Origin: Escherichia phage EP335
Reading direction: 5' to 3' (one strand)
Sequence record: MG748548
Length of the DNA stretch: 64,000 bases
How positions within the stretch are numbered: position 1 is the first letter of the stretch; each line of letters begins with the position of its first letter. Positions 1 to 53,579 of this stretch are shown piece by piece. Position numbers and translations under genes: made by a program. The notes below the pieces were generated by a model, which was not told the DNA's origin, did not search any database, and saw only the letters and a list, made by a program, of their open reading frames with translations.

Positions 1-144
1 ATAACCCTTAAGACTTACCACAGAGTTCACAGTGGGGTTCCTTCTTTTGCTAGTAATGAAAAAGAAGGGGTTGTTGATGGAGAACCTGTTGACATTCCAG
101 AGGGCCGTTGGGTAGATCTTCGTGTAGAGATGCCAACCGAGTAA
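1..144 (+). CDS. 3' end of an upstream gene (partial, product unknown)
   Basis: Frame 1 is open from the window edge to TAA at 142-144; a hairpin follows immediately. Confidence 0.35.
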   Translation: MTLKTYHRVHSGVPSFASNEKEGVVDGEPVDIPEGRWVDLRVEMPTE

Positions 145-153
145 ATAATATAT

Positions 154-174
154 GCTCCCTTCGGGGAGCTTTAA
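154..174 (+). terminator. Hairpin terminator (GCTCCC-TTCG-GGGAGC then TTTAA)
   Basis: Perfect 6-bp stem with TTCG tetraloop directly after the upstream stop codon; T-run is weak. Confidence 0.45.
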
Positions 175-184
175 GGAGATTTTA

Positions 185-2374
185 ATGTCTAGAGAATTAA
201 TGCCCAAATCTGGCATAATGATGCCTCATGTTGTTATTAACCGAGATGCTGCGGTGGTGGGTGTCTCAACTGTTGATGGTGTTGCTGGTGCGGTTAATCT
301 GACTGATAAATATTTACAGAAAACAGATGCAGCTTCTACTTATTTAACTAGAGCCGAAGGTGCTACTAAAACTTTTGTAACAGATGCAATTGGACCTATC
401 ATGTCTGGTGCACTGTTTAAAGATGACCCTGTTGTTGCAAATGATGTAGCTTTCCGTTCAGGTGGAGCTAATGGTGTAGAATCTGTGGATATGATTAAAG
501 TCACTCCAGAGAATACTATCAAACTTGGTAGTTATGCATCTTCTGTTCAGGGAGTAGAGATTCACTCAGCTGGTCGTCTTCAGGTTGTTGATCAGAATGA
601 CAGTGGTGTAGAAACTAAATACCCTGTTTATTCTAAACGGTATCGTCCTGAGATTGAAGATTTACCTTTTGCTGCAATTGGGTCTTATGTTAAGGATTCT
701 AAAGGTCGTACTATTGGTGTTACTCGTACTGGTATCAACTCTGATATCAAACAGCTTACACAGAAAGTCACATTTACTCAGCCTGTAACTGTAGCAGATG
801 GTGTTGGGGACTACGATGCTGTAACAATGAGGCAGCTGCGTAATAGTGGTGGTGGCTCTGGTGGTCCTACCATGAGTGGTATTTCTAACTTTGGTATTGG
901 TGATTTTCACCTACGTGACAGTCGTGCTTTCATCCCCGCTTTTGAGGTAGTCTCTGACGGGCAGCTTTTGAATCGCGCTGACTACCCTGATTTATGGGCT
1001 TATGCTCAACTCTTAACTCCAATCAGTGACGCTGCTTGGTTGGCGGATGCACAGCAGAGAGGTAAATACTCTACTGGTGATGGTACAACCACTTTCAGGG
1101 TTCCGGATAGAAACGGCGTACAAGCAGGATCTCTTAAAGAACTGTTTGCCCGTGGTGACGGTGGTAATTCTTCTAATAACGGTATGATGTATGATGCAGC
1201 TCTTCCTAATATCGTGGGCTATACCGCACATACTCTGCTAACAGCGTCTAGCTCTCAAGGACAGGTGGCAACTGATGGAGCTTTCACTTCAACCACATCA
1301 ACCCAAGGTGTATGGCCTGTTAGTGGGGGGGGTGGTCTTTATACTAACATTCGTTTTGATGCTAATCAATCTGATCCTACCTATGGTAGATATGGAATTA
1401 CATCAAACGTAATACCTCGTAACTTTATAGGTGTTTGGACTATTCGTGCGCATGGTGGTTTTACTGCTGCTAATACTTCTTGGTCTGTTATTGATAGTGA
1501 CTCGACAGAGCCTGCATCCGGAACAGTTGTTAGGGGCGGTAGTGTCAAATCTGAATACAAGATTGGTACAAGCCCAAAATATCAAGCATATCTTCAGGCA
1601 TATGGGAAAATTGGTGGGTTAGCAATTGACCGAGGTGCAGTTCTATCAAACGGGGTACAGGAGTGGTTCTTTAATCAAGATGGGACTTTGTATTTCCCAG
1701 ACGCAGAGACGCAAATTGGTACATTAAGGTCTGATGGCGCGTTACATATTAGCGCATACGTCAGGCCAAAGGATGTCGTTGTAAATCCATTAAACTCTGT
1801 TGGGGTTGCAGCTTCAGAAAGAAACGCCGTCAGAATGATCAACTACGCAAATGTACCAGAAGGGGGTTATATTAACTCAGTTGGTGGCGACTGGTATGAT
1901 GGGAATTGGATGCTCGGCGGAGTCAGAAGTGGCACAACAGCATTGGACCGTGCGCAACTTAACATTTTGAATGGCATTGGCAGCAGCGCCTCGTATATAT
2001 TTGGCTCTGATGGTATAGCAAGATGTCAAGAATGGAGAAGTACATCTGATGAACGGATTAAAAGCAATATTGAGCGTATCAGTGATCCACTCTCCAAGAT
2101 GAAAAACATCAAGGGGGTTACGTGGGTTCTGGAAACCAACGGCTCGGTAGGGTACGGATTCATCGCACAGGACGTAGAGAAGGATTTTCCTGAAGCTGTA
2201 TCAGAAATAAAGGCTTCACCAGTCACTCTGCGAGACGGGTCTGTGTTGGACAATGTAAAGTCAGTTAACACCTCGGGAGTTGCTGCTGCGTTGCACCATG
2301 AAGCTATTCTTGAACTTATGAAGCAGGTTGAAGATCTTAAGAAAGAGGTGTCAGAGCTTAAGTCTAGTAAGTAA
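185..2374 (+). CDS. Tail fibre protein with phage tail-collar domain and C-terminal intramolecular chaperone (peptidase S74-like) domain
   Basis: AAGGAG at 174-179 then ATG at 185 (the track start at 152 lies inside the hairpin). Collar-like motif DYPDLWAYAQ...GDGTTTFRVPDRNG; C-terminal TSDERIKSNIERI...GVTWVLETNG...GFIAQDVEKDFPEAV typical of self-cleaving tail-fibre chaperone domains. Confidence 0.85.
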   Translation: MSRELMPKSGIMMPHVVINRDAAVVGVSTVDGVAGAVNLTDKYLQKTDAASTYLTRAEGATKTFVTDAIGPIMSGALFKDDPVVANDVAFRSGGANGVESVDMIKVTPENTIKLGSYASSVQGVEIHSAGRLQVVDQNDSGVETKYPVYSKRYRPEIEDLPFAAIGSYVKDSKGRTIGVTRTGINSDIKQLTQKVTFTQPVTVADGVGDYDAVTMRQLRNSGGGSGGPTMSGISNFGIGDFHLRDSRAFIPAFEVVSDGQLLNRADYPDLWAYAQLLTPISDAAWLADAQQRGKYSTGDGTTTFRVPDRNGVQAGSLKELFARGDGGNSSNNGMMYDAALPNIVGYTAHTLLTASSSQGQVATDGAFTSTTSTQGVWPVSGGGGLYTNIRFDANQSDPTYGRYGITSNVIPRNFIGVWTIRAHGGFTAANTSWSVIDSDSTEPASGTVVRGGSVKSEYKIGTSPKYQAYLQAYGKIGGLAIDRGAVLSNGVQEWFFNQDGTLYFPDAETQIGTLRSDGALHISAYVRPKDVVVNPLNSVGVAASERNAVRMINYANVPEGGYINSVGGDWYDGNWMLGGVRSGTTALDRAQLNILNGIGSSASYIFGSDGIARCQEWRSTSDERIKSNIERISDPLSKMKNIKGVTWVLETNGSVGYGFIAQDVEKDFPEAVSEIKASPVTLRDGSVLDNVKSVNTSGVAAALHHEAILELMKQVEDLKKEVSELKSSK
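2048..2371 (+). other. Intramolecular chaperone / autoproteolytic domain of the tail fibre (predicted cleavage before DERIK)
   Basis: Last ~108 codons carry the S/DERxK motif and conserved downstream block seen in T5 pb1 and K1F endosialidase C-terminal chaperone domains. Confidence 0.65.
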
Positions 2375-2380
2375 TCTAGT

Positions 2381-2400
2381 AGCCCCTTCGGGGGCTTTAG
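2381..2400 (+). terminator. Hairpin terminator (AGCCCC-TTCG-GGGGCT)
   Basis: Perfect stem with TTCG tetraloop 7 nt after the tail-fibre stop; short T tract. Confidence 0.5.
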
Positions 2401-2468
2401 TAGTAAGTATGTTCAAGAAGTAATGAAACTACTATATCACAAAAGGAATACACATAGGAGATACGAAG

Positions 2469-2687
2469 ATGAAAATGATGAAACAAATCAGTTATGGGTT
2501 AGCTTGTGTTGCTACCGGTTTTGCTGTGTCAGTGGCTGTTCCTGTTAACGCAGTGCATCCTCTGGTAACACACCCTGCACCAATTGAGAAGTTAAGTGCA
2601 TCTTGTAAGCAGCGTACAATTCAGAATAATCTTGTGGTTATTTGTCCAGACTCTGATTCTAGTGCTCTGAGAAACATGCTTCAGTAA
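2469..2687 (+). CDS. Small protein with N-terminal signal peptide / TM segment (possible holin, antiholin or lipoprotein)
   Basis: AGGAGA RBS; 20-residue hydrophobic N-terminus with L-A-C lipobox-like triplet; sits immediately upstream of the endolysin. Confidence 0.5.
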   Translation: MKMMKQISYGLACVATGFAVSVAVPVNAVHPLVTHPAPIEKLSASCKQRTIQNNLVVICPDSDSSALRNMLQ

Positions 2688-2718
2688 TTTAGGGCTAACT
2701 GGGAAGGGAGGTGAAAAA

Positions 2719-3210
2719 ATGGATAATGTCGCATTGCCACCGATACAGCTGAGCTTAAGCCCAGACGGGATGGAATTCATCATGAAGCATGAAGGTATGA
2801 GAACTCGTGCTTACCAAGATTCCGCAGGTATCTGGACGATATGTGTTGGGGCTACGCGCGATATGAATGGGTATCCAGTTAGACAGGGATTAACGTATTC
2901 TATAGAGGATTGTCTAGCTCTGCTAGATAGAGACACACAAGACTCTGTTCGTGCCACTCAGAAAAATATTAGGGTTCCTTTGTTAACCCACGAGTTTGAT
3001 GCTCTCACCTCTTTCAACTTCAACGTTGGTGGTGGGGCTTTATCAACTTCTAAACTTAGGAAAGTTATTAACGGAGATGTAAAGGGTGATGTTTATTCTG
3101 AGTTCCTCCGTTGGGATAAAATTACAGTTAAAGGTAAGAAGATTAGCAGTCCGGGATTGAAGAATCGTAGAACTGCTGAAGCTGACCTTTACACTGAAGG
3201 TAAATACTAA
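2719..3210 (+). CDS. Endolysin, glycoside hydrolase family 24 lysozyme
   Basis: GGAGG RBS; motif HEGMRTRAYQDSAGIWTICVGAT matches the E-x8-D-x5-T catalytic region of P22 gp19 / lambda R-type lysozymes. Confidence 0.85.
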   Translation: MDNVALPPIQLSLSPDGMEFIMKHEGMRTRAYQDSAGIWTICVGATRDMNGYPVRQGLTYSIEDCLALLDRDTQDSVRATQKNIRVPLLTHEFDALTSFNFNVGGGALSTSKLRKVINGDVKGDVYSEFLRWDKITVKGKKISSPGLKNRRTAEADLYTEGKY

Positions 3211-3221
3211 AAGGAGTTGTC

Positions 3222-4025
3222 ATGGCAGTAGAAACTAATGCTAACACAATTAATGACCTCAACCCCCTGTACCCTCGTGACAGGGATTATCTTTACGAAG
3301 GGGCGGCTCAGATTCGCCTCGTTAAACAAGTATTGCAGAACACTTTTCCAAACGTAACAGAACCAGTTCAATTGGACTCAGACTCTCTCAATATTCTGGC
3401 TAGCAAAGTTACTTTTACTGGTGACTCTATGGATGTTGGTGGGTTGATGATCAAGAATGCAACTCCGGGTACAGGTGATAGAGATGTTGTCACTAAAGGC
3501 CAGATGGAAGCTTTCATGCAGAACTGGATGGCTAACAAAGTATTCAGGATTGGTTCTTACTATATCACTGAAGAAGATATTAACCCCGGTGATAGTTCTT
3601 CTCTTGGTTTTGGCTCTTGGGCTAAAGTGACTGGTGTTATTATGGGTTCTGGTGTAGTAAACCCTGACGGTTCTGTTCCTAATGCTCAGCGTGTTGAATT
3701 CCAAGCAGGTGGTACAGGTGGTCGTGTGTTTAACACTATCCGTGCTGATAACCTACCTCTTGTAACTATCAATGGCTCAAGCTTCTCTGTATCTAGTAAC
3801 ACTCACGGTCACAACATGGTGTTTGGTCGTGGTGACGCAAGTGGTCATAACAGCTCCCCTAACTGGTATAGTCCGGGTGGTGGTTATAGTCAGAGAACTG
3901 AAAATGATACACACTCTCACACAATCTCTGGTTCTGTATCTTTTGGTCGTGATGATGTTTCTCGTCAGCCAATTAATACTTTACCACCTTTCCGATCTGC
4001 ACACATCTGGAGACGTATTAGCTAA
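3222..4025 (+). CDS. Tail fibre / receptor-binding-like protein with His-x-His motifs
   Basis: Position in the tail module; C-terminal THGHN, SGHN, THSHT motifs resemble metal-binding HxH repeats of fibre tips. Confidence 0.55.
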   Translation: MAVETNANTINDLNPLYPRDRDYLYEGAAQIRLVKQVLQNTFPNVTEPVQLDSDSLNILASKVTFTGDSMDVGGLMIKNATPGTGDRDVVTKGQMEAFMQNWMANKVFRIGSYYITEEDINPGDSSSLGFGSWAKVTGVIMGSGVVNPDGSVPNAQRVEFQAGGTGGRVFNTIRADNLPLVTINGSSFSVSSNTHGHNMVFGRGDASGHNSSPNWYSPGGGYSQRTENDTHSHTISGSVSFGRDDVSRQPINTLPPFRSAHIWRRIS

Positions 4026-4034
4026 GGAGGAATT

Positions 4035-7000
4035 ATGGCGTTATACCCTATAAAATCACTTGGGGCTGTCGGTGTTATCGCTGATCAGGCACCAACTGAT
4101 TTAGCACCTAACGCTTTCACCAACGCTATGAACGCTCGGTTTGTTGAGCAGAGAGTTTTTAAGACGGGGGGCAATGCCCCTCTTTCTTACGTGGAAGAAG
4201 ACAAAGATCTGACTCCACTCTCTTTTGTCTCCATGCCTTTCGATTATTATAGCGCAGGAAATAGCTTCCTTGTAGTAGGTACAGATAAGAAGTTATATAA
4301 ACTGACAGATGAAAGCTTAACTGATATCAGTCGTAAAGTTGCTACGGTAACTAAGAAAGCTTCTGCTATCATAAAGATTTATCCAGTGGTCTCAAGGATT
4401 GTTCCTAAAGAGAGTACTATCACAATGAACTTTAACCAGACAAAAGAGTTAGAAGTTCAGGTTTTTCCAGAGGATGCTAATAATGCTAATCTGACTTGGG
4501 AAGTAAGTAACCCTTCTTATGCCAGTATTGCAGTAAATCCTACAGATTCTAAAAAAGCCACCCTCACTACATTATCTACAGAAGGAACACTGTCCATTAC
4601 TGTTTCCATTGAAGATGAATCTGTGACAGCTCAAATCTCCGTTAACATTGTTGATGGGGATACGGGTATCTTCTTGAGTCAAGACACAATCACAATTCGA
4701 AGAGGTGGTACAACAACTCTTACTGCTATCTCAGGTAAGACTCCTATCACTTGGATTAGTAGCAATGGTGGTGCTTTGTCTGTGACACCCAATGCCAATA
4801 CACTAACTGCTGTTCTCAATGCCATGGGAGAAGGAACTTTTACTGTTACAGCTGATAATGGCTCTAAGTCTGCTACCTGTACAGTTAATGTGATACCTCA
4901 GATTGATTCTATTTCTCTGAGTCAGACAGATGTTCAGATGGATAGAGGGACTCAGTATGTTCTAACTGCAACAGTCAACCCTGCTGATGCTCCTAATAAA
5001 GCAATCACTTGGACTTCTTCCAATCCTAATATTGCTACAGTATCAGGGACAAGCACAGAGGCTACAATTACTGGACTTCTGGCTGGGTTTACAGAGATTA
5101 CAGCAGTAACAGAGGAAGGTAGTCGTTCAGCTGTTTGTACTGTTCGTGTCAACCTAGCAGGTAGAATGCTAAATACCAGAAGCCTAGCGATGGCTGCTAG
5201 TGCACCTCTAGTGGAAGAGTTCAAAGAGGAAGAAGAACCAGTTGTGCAGAATGAAGAAGTTGTTTACTTCATGTCTGACTCTATGGGAATTGATACCTCT
5301 GGCATGGCTGAAGGCAATAACTTCTTTGACTACTCTAACGTATTTGATATGGAAGGTTTTGCTCGTGCTGCGGAGAACTCAAGAGCTGCTCCTCTGACAA
5401 ATGTGACACTAGATATTGTTGAAGCTTCTCTAGATGTAGGTGAAGAAATTGTCATAACTGCTACAGCAGCTCCAGAAGGGGATTACTCCTATCAGTGGGT
5501 TGTTGACAAGAGTGGTTATGTTTCTACTACCTCAACAACTGGAAGATCTTTGAAACTTACAGCTGTTCGTAAAGGCGAGATTAAAGTTACATGTACGGCG
5601 AGTCAGATGACTCAAAGAGACTACGATGCTTTTGATGATTACCCTTGGTATCATGCAGTAATCTCTAACTGTGCAGTAGCGACAACTCACTATGAAACTC
5701 CTCAGGTTAAAGAATTCGAATCTGAATACTTTACAGACCTTCCGGGCTGGGGTGAACAAACAATTGTTGATGGTGATGGGAACCCTTCTGTTCGTAAGTT
5801 TAACTGGAAGTGCGAAAGGGTTAGAGCTTTTAACAACAGATTGTTTGCTCTGAATATGAGGGAATCTAATGCCTCTGGTGTTACCACTCACTATCCTTTA
5901 CGTCTTCGCTGGTCTAACTTTGCGAACGAGAACAAGGCTCCTACTTTGTGGGATGATTATGCTTACGATCGACTGACAACTTCTGATCTTTCAGCGAACA
6001 TTGTTGGGCAGACTGAAGCTCTTGAGAATGGTTATGCAGGGTATATTGATCTGGCTGACTCTAACGGTAGTTTGATTGATGTTCTCCCTTTGAAAGATTA
6101 CTTATTTGTTTACACCGAGTTTGAAACCTACATCGGTTCTCCTACTAACAACACATACCAGCCTCTGATGTTTAAGAAGCTGTTTAACGATTCAGGTATT
6201 CTTGCTCCTGAGTGTGTGGTTGAAGTAGAGGGTGGTCACTTTGTTGTAACACAGAACGATGTGATTCTTCATAACGGTGCATCTAAGAAATCTATTGCAT
6301 CTAACCGTGTCAAGAACATGCTTATTAATGAAGTGTGTTTGGTAAACCCTCTAGCTACTAGAGTTCACTTGCACCAAGATAAGAAAGAAGTTTGGGTCAT
6401 GTATGTTGGGCCGGGAGAGCCGAAAGAAAGTTTTGCTTGTACGAAGGCTGCGGTCTGGAATTACGAGTTTGATACTTGGTCTTTCCGTACTATCCCGTAT
6501 GCTCAATGTATTGGTCTTGTTGATCCTCCTGTTCTCGAAAGAGGTCCAGTGTGGACTGACTTCCAAACTATCACTTGGGACGACCCTGCTATTGATAAAC
6601 TGGTGTGGAGAAAGGATGCAACTAACTTCCGTCAGAGAATTACTATCGTAGGCTCTTTCTTAAGGGGTTTCTATCAAGTAGATGTTGGTGCTTTGGATTA
6701 TTTCTATGACAGAGCGAATGACAAAATAATAGAGCGCCCTCTGGAAATGAGGTTAGAGAGAACAGGGATTGATTTTGATAACGTCACTAACGAATGGAAT
6801 CAAAAACACATCAACCGGTTCAGACCTCAGACTACAGGTTCTGGTACGTATATCTTTGAAGCTGGAGGTAGTCAATTCTCTAACGAGTATGGTCACAACC
6901 ACACAACTAAGAGTTATACGATTGGAGTTGATAGGCACGTAGCTGTGAGACTGAACCATCCATACCTATTCTATAATGTTATAGATAATGATGTTAACAG

Positions 7001-7055
7001 TAACGCAGCCATAAATGGGCTGACAATAGAGTTTAATGTTGGCGGTCGAAGATAA
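4035..7055 (+). CDS. Large virion protein with tandem bacterial Ig-like (Big_2) domains
   Basis: Several ~80-aa repeats of the form ITWxSSNxxxATV...TxTxxxxG (Big_2-like) in the N-terminal half; 1006 aa; RBS AAGGAGG. Confidence 0.7.
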   Translation: MALYPIKSLGAVGVIADQAPTDLAPNAFTNAMNARFVEQRVFKTGGNAPLSYVEEDKDLTPLSFVSMPFDYYSAGNSFLVVGTDKKLYKLTDESLTDISRKVATVTKKASAIIKIYPVVSRIVPKESTITMNFNQTKELEVQVFPEDANNANLTWEVSNPSYASIAVNPTDSKKATLTTLSTEGTLSITVSIEDESVTAQISVNIVDGDTGIFLSQDTITIRRGGTTTLTAISGKTPITWISSNGGALSVTPNANTLTAVLNAMGEGTFTVTADNGSKSATCTVNVIPQIDSISLSQTDVQMDRGTQYVLTATVNPADAPNKAITWTSSNPNIATVSGTSTEATITGLLAGFTEITAVTEEGSRSAVCTVRVNLAGRMLNTRSLAMAASAPLVEEFKEEEEPVVQNEEVVYFMSDSMGIDTSGMAEGNNFFDYSNVFDMEGFARAAENSRAAPLTNVTLDIVEASLDVGEEIVITATAAPEGDYSYQWVVDKSGYVSTTSTTGRSLKLTAVRKGEIKVTCTASQMTQRDYDAFDDYPWYHAVISNCAVATTHYETPQVKEFESEYFTDLPGWGEQTIVDGDGNPSVRKFNWKCERVRAFNNRLFALNMRESNASGVTTHYPLRLRWSNFANENKAPTLWDDYAYDRLTTSDLSANIVGQTEALENGYAGYIDLADSNGSLIDVLPLKDYLFVYTEFETYIGSPTNNTYQPLMFKKLFNDSGILAPECVVEVEGGHFVVTQNDVILHNGASKKSIASNRVKNMLINEVCLVNPLATRVHLHQDKKEVWVMYVGPGEPKESFACTKAAVWNYEFDTWSFRTIPYAQCIGLVDPPVLERGPVWTDFQTITWDDPAIDKLVWRKDATNFRQRITIVGSFLRGFYQVDVGALDYFYDRANDKIIERPLEMRLERTGIDFDNVTNEWNQKHINRFRPQTTGSGTYIFEAGGSQFSNEYGHNHTTKSYTIGVDRHVAVRLNHPYLFYNVIDNDVNSNAAINGLTIEFNVGGRR

Positions 7056-7060
7056 CAACT

Positions 7061-7090
7061 AAGGGGCTTCGGCCCCTTTTCTTGTTTTTA
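7061..7090 (+). terminator. Rho-independent terminator (AAGGGGC-TTCG-GCCCCTT then T-run)
   Basis: GC-rich 7-bp stem, TTCG loop, TTTTCTTGTTTTT tail directly after the 1006-aa gene stop. Confidence 0.65.
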
Positions 7091-7106
7091 AACTTTGGAG
7101 GTACTT

Positions 7107-8117
7107 ATGGGTGCTGGAGGTTTTCGTAAGAATACTGGACGTAACAACACCACACTTCCCTACAACGTTGGGTTTCTCAACAGGGTAGAGGATACAGAAA
7201 CGTATAACACTGCTGTCTATGATGAATTACAGAAAGTCAGTACAGCGACTAACCAAATGTTCCAAGCAATCGACGAGATTCATGATGAGATTGATGTTCG
7301 TATCAAAGCTCTTAACGCAATGAATCTCCAGTTCGATGAGCTTGAGAATCGAATTACTACAGAGATTGAAACAGCTATTGCAGACATTCAAACTCAAATG
7401 GGCAATCTATCTACGGATGATATTTGGGATAACTCAACGAATCCTCCTACTAAATTGAACGGTACGGTAGCTGGTATTAAAACTAGCATTGAAGGTAATG
7501 ATTTAAAGATTCAAACTGTTCAAGGCATTGTGAATGAGCAAGGACAAGAGATTGCTTTAGTTCAAACAGAACTTACAACTCAAGGTCAGAAGATTGTGGA
7601 TGTTGATGGAAGGGTTACAACTGTACAGAACTCTCTTTCTCAATATATGAAGCTTACCGAATATGAAGCTACTTGGGGTGTGAACTCAAGTGTTAACGGT
7701 CGGTATGCAGGAGTTAAGTTAACTAACAACGGAACGAACAGTGCTTTCCAAGTAACTGCTCAGAAGTTTATTGTCGGTGATGGTAGCTCTGGTAACACCC
7801 CTTTCGTCTTTGAGAATGGTAGGGCTAGAATGGAGTTCGCTGATATAAAGAATGTCAACATCACAACTGCCATGATTGCTAATGCTCGTATCCAGTTTGC
7901 TCAGATTGATAATGTATGGATTCAAGATGGTCAGATTGCTAACCTAACAGCTAACAAGATTACTGCTGGTAGTATGTCCGGCTCTAACTGGAGACTTACA
8001 GTAGGTGGGGATTTTGTAATGGGCGGAACAGGTGGGGCACAGCTTTGGATGAATGGAAACAGAATTGATTTCTATGATGGGAGTGGTGCTTTGAGAATTA
8101 GAATAGGGAGTTGGTGA
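7107..8117 (+). CDS. Coiled-coil tail fibre-like structural protein
   Basis: GGAGG RBS then ATG at 7107 (track start at 7095 is TTG); heptad-rich central region; Gly-rich C-terminus. Confidence 0.55.
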   Translation: MGAGGFRKNTGRNNTTLPYNVGFLNRVEDTETYNTAVYDELQKVSTATNQMFQAIDEIHDEIDVRIKALNAMNLQFDELENRITTEIETAIADIQTQMGNLSTDDIWDNSTNPPTKLNGTVAGIKTSIEGNDLKIQTVQGIVNEQGQEIALVQTELTTQGQKIVDVDGRVTTVQNSLSQYMKLTEYEATWGVNSSVNGRYAGVKLTNNGTNSAFQVTAQKFIVGDGSSGNTPFVFENGRARMEFADIKNVNITTAMIANARIQFAQIDNVWIQDGQIANLTANKITAGSMSGSNWRLTVGGDFVMGGTGGAQLWMNGNRIDFYDGSGALRIRIGSW

Positions 8118-13693: not shown

Positions 13694-13702
13694 TAATGTA
13701 TA
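13694..13702 (+). promoter_or_regulatory. TAATGTATA promoter-like element upstream of the 1473-aa gene
   Basis: Exact TAATGTATA about 37 nt before ATG 13739, in the loop of a hairpin (13681-13716); the same 9-mer recurs upstream of other genes. Confidence 0.4.
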
Positions 13703-18165: not shown

Positions 18166-18202
18166 AAAAGCCCCAACCGAAAGGAAGGGGCTTTATTTTT
18201 AT
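18166..18202 (+). terminator. Rho-independent terminator (AAAGCCCC ... GGGGCTTT then T-run)
   Basis: 8-bp stem followed by ATTTTTA, 6 nt after the stop; lies in the convergent junction between the + and - blocks. Confidence 0.65.
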
Positions 18203-22257: not shown

Positions 22258-22282
22258 CGAAAAAAGCCACCCGAAGGTGGCT
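22258..22282 (-). terminator. Rho-independent terminator (AGCCACC-UUCG-GGUGGCU then U-run) downstream of the SSB-like gene
   Basis: Perfect 7-bp stem with tetraloop; A6 on the + strand gives a U-tract on the - strand transcript. Confidence 0.6.
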
Positions 22283-23102: not shown

Positions 23103-23111
23103 TATACATTA
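23103..23111 (-). promoter_or_regulatory. TAATGTATA promoter-like element upstream of the SSB-like gene
   Basis: Reverse complement of 23103-23111 is TAATGTATA, about 60 nt upstream of the start at 23045; a second copy in + orientation lies at 23175-23183. Confidence 0.4.
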
Positions 23112-23590
23112 CACCTATACCGATAAGGGTGCTATATAGTATAAGCAGTAGTGGTAGTAGATATTGACTACTAGTAATGTATATATTGTATAGATGATAA
23201 TTCTATTGCAGGCTTGTATATTGGGCAATTCTCAGAATCCCTTGCAAGTACCGAAGGGCAGGAGACACCTGCGAGATAAAAATAGAGAATTAAGGAATCC
23301 TTGATTTAGGTTGTAGGGACTCCTAGGGACTTTGATTCTCTATTTAAAAGAAATATTAATTACTTACTACCTAAATAGTTAACTAACTTACTTAAAACCT
23401 TTTCAATAAGAATTGCTAAAAGGATAATTCCTAAGAAAGCTAATAAGAGAAAGGCATAAGTTACCATTCCATCATTCCTTTTAATCTAGATTCTTCTACT
23501 ATTCGCTGATAGAGTAAGTTAGACTCAGCTTGATCTTTTAACATTTTACTGTATTGATCTCTGAGACTATCTTTATAAACAACAGGTGGT

Positions 23591-29440: not shown

Positions 29441-29449
29441 TATACATTA
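29441..29449 (-). promoter_or_regulatory. TAATGTATA promoter-like element upstream of the basic-protein gene
   Basis: Reverse complement of 29441-29449 is TAATGTATA, about 40 nt upstream of ATG 29404. Confidence 0.4.
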
Positions 29450-53503: not shown

Positions 53504-53579
53504 TGGTGCGCCCTACAGGATTCGAACCTGTAACCAATAGCTTAGAAGGCTACTGCTCTATCCGTTGAGCTAAGAGCGC
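53504..53579 (-). tRNA. tRNA-Arg (anticodon UCU), CCA encoded
   Basis: Reverse complement folds as a canonical cloverleaf: acceptor GCGCTCT/AGGGCGC, D-arm GCTC-AACGGATA-GAGC, anticodon arm GTAGC-CTTCTAA-GCTAT, T-arm ACAGG-TTCGAAT-CCTGT, then A-CCA. Confidence 0.9.

What the first reader, a model, noticed from the sequence alone, without database searches (positions are those of the whole stretch)
154..2400. Tail-fibre gene with self-cleaving chaperone domain bracketed by near-identical UUCG hairpins
The receptor-binding tail fibre (collar domain plus C-terminal intramolecular chaperone) is flanked by GCTCCC-TTCG-GGGAGC (154-169) and AGCCCC-TTCG-GGGGCT (2381-2396). The matching hairpins on both sides delimit the fibre as a discrete cassette, consistent with host-range module exchange; the upstream one overlaps the start region and may also modulate translation.
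Basis: partly seen in the sequence, partly recalled or inferred. Interest (0 to 1): 0.4.

Follow-up and report, generated by a model that had tools for sequence, protein, structure and literature searches.

The report
Tail-fibre gene followed by conserved RNA hairpins
This is the distal long tail fibre gene of a phiEco32/Kuravirus-type E. coli phage; the two small hairpins around it are conserved stem-loops that sit after each of two consecutive fibre genes, and the parts of the fibre that get swapped between phages lie inside the gene, so the finding is real but ordinary.

Summary
Both hairpins are exactly where stated and are not chance: the window has four perfect C(UUCG)G hairpins with stems of at least 6 bp, against 0.12 expected. 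The gene really starts at 185 (729 aa). It is the Gordonclarkvirinae distal long tail fibre, published as a "T-shaped" dual-receptor-binding fibre. Its C-terminal Peptidase_S74 chaperone has the T620|S621...K626 motif, predicting a 109-aa released fragment.

The "cassette bracketed by hairpins" reading is only partly right. Each hairpin lies a few bases after the stop codon of one fibre gene: hp1 after the proximal fibre, hp2 after the distal fibre. Both are conserved in relatives, with compensatory stem changes. No relative examined swaps the hairpin-to-hairpin unit. Hp1 and the fibre's first ~310 codons form one continuous conserved block. The variable segments lie inside the gene (1117-1416 and ~1500-2370). 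Transfers to and from Wifcevirus, T5-like and Seuratvirus phages cover only 1417-2341. Hp2 does mark the right edge of the variable region.

Hp1 and hp2 have only three U after the stem, and hp1 must be read through for the fibre to be made. They are most likely RNA-level stabiliser or weak attenuator elements in the late operon. The feature is ordinary and of low interest.

The parts
1..144 (+). 3' end (last 47 codons plus stop) of the proximal long tail fibre gene (SU10 gp12 equivalent)
   Evidence: PHROG tail-fibre families match at E=3e-19. It is syntenic with the annotated proximal fibre genes of relatives (PMC9509320).
154..169 (+). hp1: C(UUCG)G stem-loop GCTCCC-TTCG-GGGAGC, 9 nt after the upstream stop codon and followed by TTTA and then the ribosome-binding site
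   Evidence: -12 kcal/mol. It is conserved in relatives, with 100% of cells paired and 2 of 6 pairs compensatory (GCCCTC/GAGGGC in SU7, ECBP2 and Bas88). Other stems sit at the same site: AACCCC/GGGGTT in IMEP8 and an 8-bp GAAA-loop hairpin in Paul.
173..178 (+). Ribosome-binding site AAGGAG of the fibre gene
   Evidence: It lies 6 nt upstream of ATG 185. The arrangement hairpin-TTTA-(A/T)GGAG is kept in all relatives.
185..2374 (+). Distal long tail fibre gene (729 aa; SU10 gp13 equivalent; published "T-shaped" dual-receptor-binding fibre)
   Evidence: phrog_6921 matches full length at E=0. Relatives carry the same annotation. Literature.
185..1116 (+). Conserved N-terminal part (aa 1-311): attachment region and shaft, plus the conserved start of the Gp12/collar-like receptor-binding domain 1
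   Evidence: It is contiguous with hp1 at 76-88% nucleotide identity in all two-gene relatives, with many invariant residues. The Collar match at aa 294-311 is sub-threshold. Residues from aa 203 on are homologous to DT57C LtfA.
1117..1416 (+). Variable patch inside receptor-binding domain 1 (aa 312-410)
   Evidence: No detectable DNA homology in most relatives. It is 97% identical only to phage TH43 and 75% to NJ01-type phages.
1417..1501 (+). Conserved linker (aa 411-439, ...RNFIGVWTIRAHGGFTAANTSWSVI...), a recurrent breakpoint inside the gene
   Evidence: It forms an island of 83-94% identity in all relatives, and its residues are invariant. It is the left edge of the homology to Wifcevirus, T5-like and Seuratvirus fibres and is shared with DT57C LtfA.
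1502..2044 (+). Receptor-binding domain 2 (aa 440-620, T5-like by published structure prediction of homologues)
   Evidence: It is replaced in most relatives. It is shared at 74-95% amino-acid identity with 4E8, ECML-117 (Wifcevirus), APCEc03 (Tequintavirus) and SA126VB (Seuratvirus). Fold assignment comes from PMC11990801 and was not tested here.
2045..2371 (+). C-terminal intramolecular chaperone domain (aa 621-729; Peptidase_S74)
   Evidence: Pfam E=3e-12, found in 13 of 14 homologues. The motif T620|S621...K626 matches T5 pb1 T1263|S1264...K1269 (PMC4690869). It aligns with PDB 6f45 at E=5e-7.
2381..2396 (+). hp2: C(UUCG)G stem-loop AGCCCC-TTCG-GGGGCT, 6 nt after the fibre stop codon and followed by TTAG
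   Evidence: -13.9 kcal/mol. The core GCCCC-TTCG-GGGGC-TTTAG is invariant in 15 relatives. Ptacy1479, 1-6af and WFI101126 carry the compensatory variant AACCCTC/GAGGGTT. The homologue is annotated as a terminator in record NC_070991.1.
2420..2438 (+). Conserved non-coding motif GTAATGAAACTAMTATATC between hp2 and the holin gene (function unknown)
   Evidence: It is invariant in the 15 aligned relatives and its core is kept in ES17 and XT18. It is unique in the window.
2469..2687 (+). Holin gene, the first gene of the conserved block downstream of hp2
   Evidence: phrog_11161 holin at E=3e-46. Relatives carry the same annotation.
7061..7078 (+). hp3: third C(UUCG)G hairpin AAGGGGC-TTCG-GCCCCTT with a T-rich tail, after the 1006-aa nozzle-protein gene. 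It looks like a terminator.
   Evidence: -15 kcal/mol; positive terminator score.
22265..22282 (-). hp4: fourth C(UUCG)G hairpin AGCCACC-TTCG-GGTGGCT followed by TTTTTT, on the minus strand between leftward genes. It looks like a terminator.

Best explanation
**Setting.** The window comes from a phiEco32/Kuravirus-type (Gordonclarkvirinae) E. coli podophage. Bases 185-2374 encode its distal long tail fibre.

**The fibre.** It has five parts:
- a conserved N-terminal part that joins the proximal fibre;
- a Gp12/collar-like receptor-binding domain;
- a conserved linker;
- a second receptor-binding domain;
- a C-terminal Peptidase_S74 intramolecular chaperone.
The chaperone is predicted (not shown) to cleave itself off between T620 and S621 after the fibre trimerises.

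**The hairpins.** They are not brackets of this gene. Each is the 3' element of one fibre gene: hp1 belongs to the proximal fibre gene and hp2 to this one. They belong to a small set of very stable C(UUCG)G stem-loops between genes of this phage's operons.

**Proposed mechanism (inferred).** They act on the RNA of the late polycistronic transcript. RNA polymerase largely reads through them. The folded hairpin then blocks 3'-to-5' exonucleases and, at most, terminates weakly. The fibre-encoding upstream segments would then be more stable and more abundant than the lysis genes that follow hp2.

**Host-range exchange.** It is real, but it works on pieces inside the gene. The linker at 1417-1500 and the end of the gene are the usual borders. 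Hp2 marks the right border only because it is the first conserved element after the stop codon.
For: **Identity of the fibre**
-; literature.
- Chaperone motif.

**The hairpins are selected as structures**
- 4 observed against 0.117 expected.
- The hp1 stem is 100% paired, with two compensatory pairs.
- Further different stems occupy the same two sites: IMEP8 AACCCC/GGGGTT; Paul with an 8-bp GAAA-loop stem; Ptacy1479, 1-6af and WFI101126 with AACCCTC/GAGGGTT.
- The AU-rich spacer just upstream of each hairpin varies freely.

**A hairpin, not a particular sequence or a T-tract, is what persists**
- In ES17 the imported fibre gene brought its own 8-bp hairpin without a T tail, and the resident hairpin has decayed.
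- XT18 has an unrelated 11-bp stem at the site.

**Read-through**
- Only 15 nt separate hp1 from the fibre start codon, so there is no room for a promoter. The SU10 orthologue is a virion protein by mass spectrometry.
- The exact late-promoter motif TAATGTATA (PMC8948821) occurs on the + strand only at 13694 and 23175.
- Hp1 and hp2 have three T after the stem and borderline or negative terminator scores (-6; -11 to 0). Hp3, hp4 and the operon-end terminator at about 18170-18200 have long T runs (+10 to +31).

**Exchange is sub-genic**
-.

**Each hairpin goes with its upstream gene**
-.
Against: - No transcript data for any phage of this group were found, so termination efficiency, RNA 3' ends and RNA processing are all inferred.
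- The TTT immediately after the stem is invariant at junction 1 in every variant, including Paul's unrelated hairpin. That is what a weak intrinsic terminator would need and a pure stability element would not.
- Hp2's homologue has been annotated as a terminator by others.
- The conserved motif at 2420-2438 could be an unrecognised promoter. If so, hp2 could terminate efficiently.
- The terminator score formula was recalled from memory and used with modern energy parameters, so only the ranking is reliable.
- Autocleavage of the chaperone has not been shown for any Gordonclarkvirinae fibre in the papers read.
Confidence: 0.6

Rival explanations
1. Hp1 and hp2 are efficient Rho-independent terminators that make the fibre gene its own transcription unit.
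For: - A G+C-rich stem with a very stable tetraloop lies directly after a stop codon and is followed by TTT.
- Hp2's homologue is annotated as a terminator in NC_070991.1.
- Hp3 and hp4, of the same class, look like true terminators.
Against: - Only three T follow the stem, and the terminator scores are borderline or negative.
- The consensus scan did not call either hairpin on the + strand.
- There is no space for a promoter between hp1 and the fibre start.
- No exact late-promoter motif lies between hp2 and 13694.
- Mapped phiEco32 promoters lie upstream of genes 6, 13, 26, 40, 58 and 68 only.
- The substitute hairpins in ES17 and XT18 have no T tail.
Confidence: 0.1
2. One reading: the hairpins are linker sequences where recombination occurs, so that the fibre moves as a discrete cassette. 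This would resemble the promoter-stem-loop cassettes that flank shuffled genes in T4-type phages.
For: - The two hairpins are nearly identical.
- Homology breaks fall at 142-171 in some relatives and at 2373-2383 in most.
- In some relatives the upstream fibre gene also ends with chaperone domain, stop codon and hairpin.
Against: - No relative shows a hairpin-to-hairpin swap, and hp1 is always continuous with the fibre's N-terminal 310 codons.
- Cross-family homology ends 30-60 nt before the stop codon. Those phages have their own, different terminators.
- In E20-1 and EK010 the spacer between stop codon and hp1 is the resident junction-1 type. The crossover was therefore left of the hairpin, not in it.
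- In Paul and ES17 the hairpin itself was imported or replaced along with the upstream gene.
- Every donor within the subfamily shares several kb of homologous DNA downstream, so the hairpin is not needed as an anchor.
Confidence: 0.08
3. Hp1 is mainly a 5' element of the fibre mRNA. After RNase cleavage in the AU-rich spacer it would cap the 5' end and stabilise the message, or set the translation rate by lying 3 nt from the ribosome-binding site.
For: - The arrangement hairpin-TTTA-GGAG, with fixed spacing, is kept in all junction-1 variants, including Paul's unrelated hairpin.
- The AU-rich single-stranded spacer upstream resembles an RNase E context.
- A 5' CUUCGG hairpin stabilises a T4 transcript, as cited in PMC8948821.
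Against: - Hp2, hp3 and hp4 are 60, 18 and about 12 nt from the next ribosome-binding site, so this cannot be the common role of the class.
- There are no processing data.
- This role could coexist with the best explanation rather than replace it.
Confidence: 0.2
4. The hairpins are chance inverted repeats with no function.
For: Each is short (16 nt).
Against: - 4 observed against 0.117 expected, with no shuffle above one.
- They are conserved across three genera with compensatory changes, while the adjacent spacers vary.
Confidence: 0.02

Closest known systems
Distal long tail fibre of Gordonclarkvirinae (SU10 gp13; Bas87 Gp10 "T-shaped" fibre with Gp12-like RBD1, T5-like RBD2 and intramolecular chaperone; PMC9509320, PMC11990801)
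   Same: - The gene order is the same: proximal fibre, distal fibre, holin, endolysin, short fibre, nozzle.
- It matches the PHROG family full length and shares 56-84% amino-acid identity with annotated orthologues.
- It has the same variable-domain pattern and the same exchange with Wifcevirus and Tequintavirus.
   Different: This phage carries its own mosaic of domain alleles. The N-terminal part is closest to KBNP1711 and TH43, the RBD1 patch to TH43, and RBD2 plus chaperone to 4E8 and Bas89.
Peptidase_S74 intramolecular chaperone domains of endosialidases and of the T5 L-shaped fibre pb1 (PMC4690869)
   Same: - It sits at the C-terminus and passes Pfam's cut-off.
- The T|S-D-x-x-x-K motif has the same Ser-to-Lys spacing as pb1 T1263|S1264...K1269.
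   Different: - Cleavage is not demonstrated here.
- The domain is 109 aa, against 133 in pb1.
C(UUCG)G hairpins in intergenic regions of phage genomes (abundant in T4, where they stop reverse transcriptase and can stabilise transcripts; noted for the phiEco32-like phage 7-11 in PMC8948821)
   Same: - It has the same loop and closing pair.
- It lies between genes.
- It has high predicted stability.
   Different: - Function was not tested in this phage group.
- The 7-11 example has a GUUCGG loop and lies upstream of the sigma-factor gene, a different site.
Intrinsic (Rho-independent) terminators
   Same: A G+C-rich stem-loop just after a stop codon. Hp3, hp4 and the 18170-18200 element fit fully.
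   Different: - Hp1 and hp2 have only three U after the stem.
- Hp1 must be read through.
Promoter-early stem-loop cassettes that flank shuffled genes in T4-type phages
   Same: A short repeated regulatory motif with a stem-loop lies next to variable genes.
   Different: - No promoter is attached to the motif.
- Breakpoints coincide with the motif only on the 3' side of each gene.
- The hairpin-to-hairpin unit is never seen to move.

Membership tests
Peptidase_S74 intramolecular chaperone | Match to the family profile above the curated cut-off | tested here: met
   PF13884 at 47.1 bits against a cut-off of 22, aa 621-672. Found in 13 of 14 homologues.
Peptidase_S74 intramolecular chaperone | Scissile or catalytic Ser with Lys five residues downstream, at the start of the domain | tested here: met
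   T620|S621-DERI-K626. S621, D622 and K626 are nearly invariant. The spacing matches T5 pb1.
Peptidase_S74 intramolecular chaperone | Autocleavage and release of the domain after trimerisation | not testable with these tools
   SU10 proteomics lists only calculated masses. This needs a gel or mass spectrometry of virions.
Gordonclarkvirinae T-shaped distal long tail fibre | Orthology and gene order with SU10 gp13 and Bas87 Gp10 | tested here: met
Gordonclarkvirinae T-shaped distal long tail fibre | Gp12/collar-like receptor-binding domain 1 | tested here: inconclusive
   Pfam Collar is below the cut-off (18.6 bits against 24) but recurs in 12 of 14 homologues. The region shows strong homology to DT57C LtfA.
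Gordonclarkvirinae T-shaped distal long tail fibre | T5-like fold of receptor-binding domain 2 | not tested
   Taken from published predictions for homologues.
Intrinsic terminator | Stable G+C-rich stem-loop after a stop codon | tested here: met
Intrinsic terminator | Run of U (typically at least 5 of 8) directly after the stem | tested here: not met
   Hp1 has TTTAAGGA and hp2 has TTAGTAGT. Neither was called on the + strand by the scan. Scores are -6 and -11 to 0, against +10 to +31 for hp3 and hp4.
Intrinsic terminator | Transcripts end there in vivo | not testable with these tools
   No transcript-end data were found for this phage group.
C(UUCG)G stable tetraloop hairpin class | UUCG loop closed by a C-G pair on a Watson-Crick stem | tested here: met
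   All four hairpins fit.
C(UUCG)G stable tetraloop hairpin class | Structure maintained in evolution | tested here: met
   100% of cells paired, two compensatory pairs at hp1 and two more at hp2 in Ptacy1479-type phages. The changes probably reflect few independent events.
   The right boundary coincides with hp2. The left boundary is never at hp1 for this gene.

The most novel reading that the evidence does not exclude
The unit [quoted passage not shown] could be a portable 3' boundary element. It would actively promote shuffling of receptor-binding-domain-plus-chaperone modules. The shuffling would occur between the two fibre genes of one genome and between phages. This would explain why some relatives carry a second complete T-module on the proximal fibre, ending at hp1, and why junction 2 (TTTAGTAG or TTTTAGGAG) looks like a decayed copy of junction 1.
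Probability: 0.08. Interest if true: 0.45.

Novelty: new member of a known kind. Interest (0 to 1): 0.2.

Why it matters
For anyone re-targeting Kuravirus-type phages, the practical result is where a fibre can be cut and pasted. The natural joints are the conserved linker at codons 411-439 and the last codons of the chaperone domain, not the gene borders. The hairpin after each fibre gene should be kept, because evolution has kept a hairpin there even when the whole gene was replaced. Beyond that, the feature adds one more allele to a published fibre family. It also adds a conserved but unstudied pair of intercistronic stem-loops to a well-known class.

Tried and rejected
- **Rfam:** a scan of 1-8000 at E<=1 found nothing relevant.
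- **Late-promoter motif at the start codon:** TAATGTCTA at 183-191 is a one-mismatch match to the phiEco32 late-promoter motif. Such matches occur 18 times against 19 expected, so it was rejected as chance.
- **Second hairpin inside the gene:** GGCAT-AATG-ATGCC at 212-225 was flagged by the scan. Its third stem position varies without compensation in relatives, so it was rejected.
- **More relatives:** scans of IMG/VR and of metagenome contigs with the conserved start of the gene gave only 4 loci each. They added phiEco32 and two informative metagenome contigs, but not enough depth for statistics.
- **Sigma-70 promoter:** none could be fitted to the conserved 2420-2438 motif. The spacers are 12-15 nt and the -35 region is not conserved.
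- **Mass-spectrometry evidence for cleavage:** the SU10 paper was checked. Only calculated masses and 40% coverage are given.
Full report
**1. What is in the sequence**

GCTCCC-TTCG-GGGAGC is at 154-169 and AGCCCC-TTCG-GGGGCT is at 2381-2396.
- They differ by one base pair: GC(T)CCC-TTCG-GGG(A)GC-TTTA.
- A scan of the whole window for perfect stems of at least 6 bp around a TTCG loop finds four. They are at 154, 2381 and 7061 on the + strand and at 22282-22265 on the - strand.
- Dinucleotide-preserving shuffles give 0.117 on average and never more than one in 300 trials.
- All four sit 6-22 nt after a stop codon, between genes of the same orientation.
- As RNA they fold at -12.0, -13.9, -15.0 and -12.7 kcal/mol.

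**2. The gene**

- The real start is ATG 185, preceded by AAGGAG at 173-178. All annotated relatives start at the equivalent MSRELMP.
- The upstream ATG is missing (Bas89, CYGL) or out of frame (SU7 type) in relatives.
- Hp1 therefore spans -31 to -16 from the start codon, 3 nt upstream of the ribosome-binding site.
- The 729-aa product matches the tail-fibre family phrog_6921 end to end.
- The window is a Gordonclarkvirinae (phiEco32/Kuravirus-like) E. coli podophage. The best overall matches are Bas89, 4E8, KBNP1711 and TH43.
- In SU10 the upstream gene is the proximal long tail fibre (gp12) and this gene is the distal one (gp13) (PMC9509320).
- The second BASEL paper describes these distal fibres as "T-shaped". 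They have a Gp12-like RBD1, a T5-like RBD2 and an intramolecular chaperone. The domains are exchanged horizontally among Gordonclarkvirinae, Wifcevirus and Tequintavirus (PMC11990801).

**3. Domains**

- Peptidase_S74 matches aa 621-672 at E=3e-12 and is found in 13 of 14 homologues.
- The sequence T620-S621-D-E-R-I-K626 reproduces the scissile Thr-Ser bond and the Lys five residues later of T5 pb1 (T1263|S1264, K1269; PMC4690869).
- Cleavage would leave a 620-aa, 65.8 kDa mature fibre and a 109-aa, 11.9 kDa fragment. This is a prediction. No paper read here shows processing in this phage group.
- The "collar" domain is only a sub-threshold Pfam hit, though it recurs in 12 of 14 homologues.
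- Residues aa 203-522 are strongly homologous to the solved DT57C LtfA fibre at E=1e-88.

**4. Are the hairpins cassette borders?**

I compared the window with 12 annotated relatives, four more with unusual junctions, five with a single fibre gene and three informative metagenome contigs.

- *Two-gene relatives.* Homology runs without a break from the last 30-140 nt of the upstream gene, through hp1, into the fibre gene as far as 1116-1500.
- *Variable segments.* These are 1117-1416 (a patch in RBD1, 97% identical only to TH43) and about 1500 to 2233-2370 (RBD2 plus chaperone).
- *Conserved island.* Between the variable segments lies 1417-1500, encoding RNFIGVWTIRAHGGFTAANTSWSVI. It is invariant in all 14 aligned proteins.
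- *Cross-family homology.* It covers only the inside of the gene: 1417-2341 for Wifcevirus ECML-117 (81% nt), and 1418-2312 for Tequintavirus APCEc03 and Seuratvirus SA126VB. Each of those phages has its own, different downstream element or none.
- *Conclusion.* The unit that moves is sub-genic, and hp1 is not a left border of it.

**5. What the hairpins do mark**

- Downstream, homology to the holin-endolysin block begins at 2375-2383 in 24 of 25 rows sampled evenly from 97 records, and at 2420 in the other.
- Upstream, in E20-1 and EK010 (152), IMEP8 (142), Paul (171) and contigs OERO01000484.1 and CYGL01002189.1, the proximal fibre has a different C-terminus. Homology to the window begins at or next to hp1.
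- In several of these the proximal fibre carries its own RBD1, linker, RBD2 and chaperone module, then a stop codon, then hp1.
- So each hairpin is the first conserved element after the variable C-terminus of one fibre gene. The two are serial 3' tags, not a pair of brackets.
- In ES17, myPSH2311, Ptacy1479, 1-6af, XT18 and WFI101126 a single gene of about 1000-1100 codons replaces both fibre genes. Hp1 is absent and nothing from 1-2372 matches.

**6. Evidence that the structure is selected**

- At junction 1 the stem is GCTCCC/GGGAGC in most phages, GCCCTC/GAGGGC in SU7, ECBP2 and Bas88, and AACCCC/GGGGTT in IMEP8. Paul has an unrelated 8-bp stem with a GAAA loop.
- All are followed by TTTA and the ribosome-binding site.
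- On a 10-sequence alignment every cell is paired and two of six pairs change on both sides. No shuffle reaches the observed covariation score, and shifted registers drop to 38-67% paired. The compensatory changes probably stem from very few events.
- At junction 2 the core GCCCC-TTCG-GGGGC-TTTAG is invariant in 15 relatives.
- Ptacy1479, 1-6af and WFI101126 have AACCCTC/GAGGGTT there, which is two compensatory pairs.
- In ES17 the imported gene is followed by its own hairpin (AACCCCGC-TTAG-GCGGGGTT), and the resident one has decayed to CTCCCC-TTCG-AGGCC.
- XT18 has an 11-bp stem of different sequence.
- The AU-rich spacers just upstream of both hairpins vary freely.
- A stable hairpin after the fibre gene is therefore the conserved property.

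**7. Terminator or not?**

- Hp1 and hp2 are followed by TTTA and TTAG. The consensus scan did not call either on the + strand.
- A d'Aubenton-Carafa-type score gives about -6 for hp1 and -11 to 0 for hp2. It gives +10 to +31 for hp3 and +22 for hp4. The formula was recalled from memory, so only the ranking should be trusted.
- The end of the rightward operon, at about 18170-18200, has a separate hairpin with a long T run.
- The substitute hairpins in ES17 and XT18 have no T tail at all.
- Hp1 lies 15 nt from the fibre start, so the fibre must be transcribed by read-through. SU10 gp13 is found in virions.
- phiEco32 late and middle promoters have the single element tAATGTAtA and were mapped upstream of genes 6, 13, 26, 40, 58 and 68 (PMC8948821).
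- In the window the exact motif occurs on the + strand only at 13694 and 23175. By this criterion the lysis, short-fibre and nozzle genes also depend on read-through of hp2.
- I conclude that hp1 and hp2 are at most weak attenuators. The hairpin itself most likely acts on the RNA as a barrier to 3' exonucleases, giving the fibre segments a longer life than the lysis genes downstream. This step is inference; no transcript data exist.
- One GenBank record annotates the hp2 homologue as a terminator. Published SU10 and SU7 terminator lists do not include these sites.

**8. Does recombination occur in the hairpins?**

- The chaperone C-terminus of the E20-1/EK010 proximal fibre (...VEELEAKLAAK) resembles that of the distal fibre of contig OERO01000484.1 (...VEELEAQLAAK). 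This shows module traffic between the two loci.
- The spacer between the stop codon and hp1 in E20-1 is the resident junction-1 type (ACTAACAAT). The crossover was therefore to the left of the hairpin.
- Donors within the subfamily share kilobases of homologous DNA downstream, so no special anchor is needed.
- I rate a recombination role at under 10%.

**9. Comparison and verdict**

- The fibre is a new mosaic allele of a published family.
- The chaperone domain is a standard Peptidase_S74 member by sequence.
- The hairpins belong to the long-known class of C(UUCG)G intercistronic hairpins of phages, discussed for this phage group in PMC8948821.
The interpretation as a hairpin-bracketed cassette is only partly supported. 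The feature is ordinary.

Noticed in passing
window 2420-2438: The 19-nt non-coding motif GTAATGAAACTAMTATATC lies 24 nt after hp2 and 31 nt before the holin start. It is invariant in the 15 aligned relatives and its core is kept in phages whose whole fibre locus was replaced. It is unique in the window. It resembles neither a sigma-70 promoter nor, closely, the tAATGTAtA late-promoter element. It may be an unrecognised promoter or regulatory site for the lysis genes.
   Followed up: partly
window 185-230: The first ~15 codons of the fibre gene are almost invariant at synonymous sites across relatives that differ by 20-25% elsewhere. The N-terminal ~40 codons also match tail-fibre genes of T5-like Salmonella phages at 71-78% nucleotide identity.
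   Followed up: partly
L021 713-4027 and 4067-6247; L024; L030 1830-5051; L031 272-3493; L032 796-3507: In some relatives and metagenome contigs the proximal long tail fibre carries its own complete receptor-binding module with a chaperone domain (RBD1-linker-RBD2-IMC in L021, L024, E20-1 and EK010; an IMC-type C-terminus in IMEP8). Both consecutive fibre genes then end in a self-cleaving chaperone followed by a UUCG hairpin. This suggests a fibre with two receptor-binding modules in series.
   Followed up: partly
L025 6360-6587 (phage ES17): The single imported fibre gene is followed by its own 8-bp UUAG-loop hairpin and about 150 nt of extra DNA. The resident UUCG hairpin at the usual site has lost pairing (CTCCCC-TTCG-AGGCC).
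   Followed up: yes
L009 5020-5600 (phage Bas93): The fibre gene is truncated within the chaperone domain. Three small ORFs lie between it and the retained hp2 homologue, and a remnant of the original gene end lies just before the hairpin.
   Followed up: no
window 18166-18200: At the end of the rightward late operon, facing leftward genes, lies a two-step hairpin GCCCC-AA-CC-GAAA-GG-AA-GGGGC. It is preceded by AAAA and followed by TTTATTTTTATC, and looks like a bidirectional terminator.
   Followed up: no
window 13694-13702 (+), 23175-23183 (+), 23103-23111 (-), 29441-29449 (-): These are exact copies of the phiEco32 middle/late promoter element TAATGTATA. The one at 13694 lies just upstream of the 1473-aa gene, as reported for SU10 between CDS 23 and 24.
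   Followed up: partly
window 4166-4182: The terminator-like hairpin GGGGGGC-AAT-GCCCCTC plus TTTCTT lies inside the coding sequence of the 1006-aa nozzle-protein gene. The equivalent site is annotated as a terminator in the phage 4E8 record.
   Followed up: no
window 53504-53579 (-): A tRNA-Arg (anticodon TCT) gene, as reported for SU10 and SU7.
   Followed up: no
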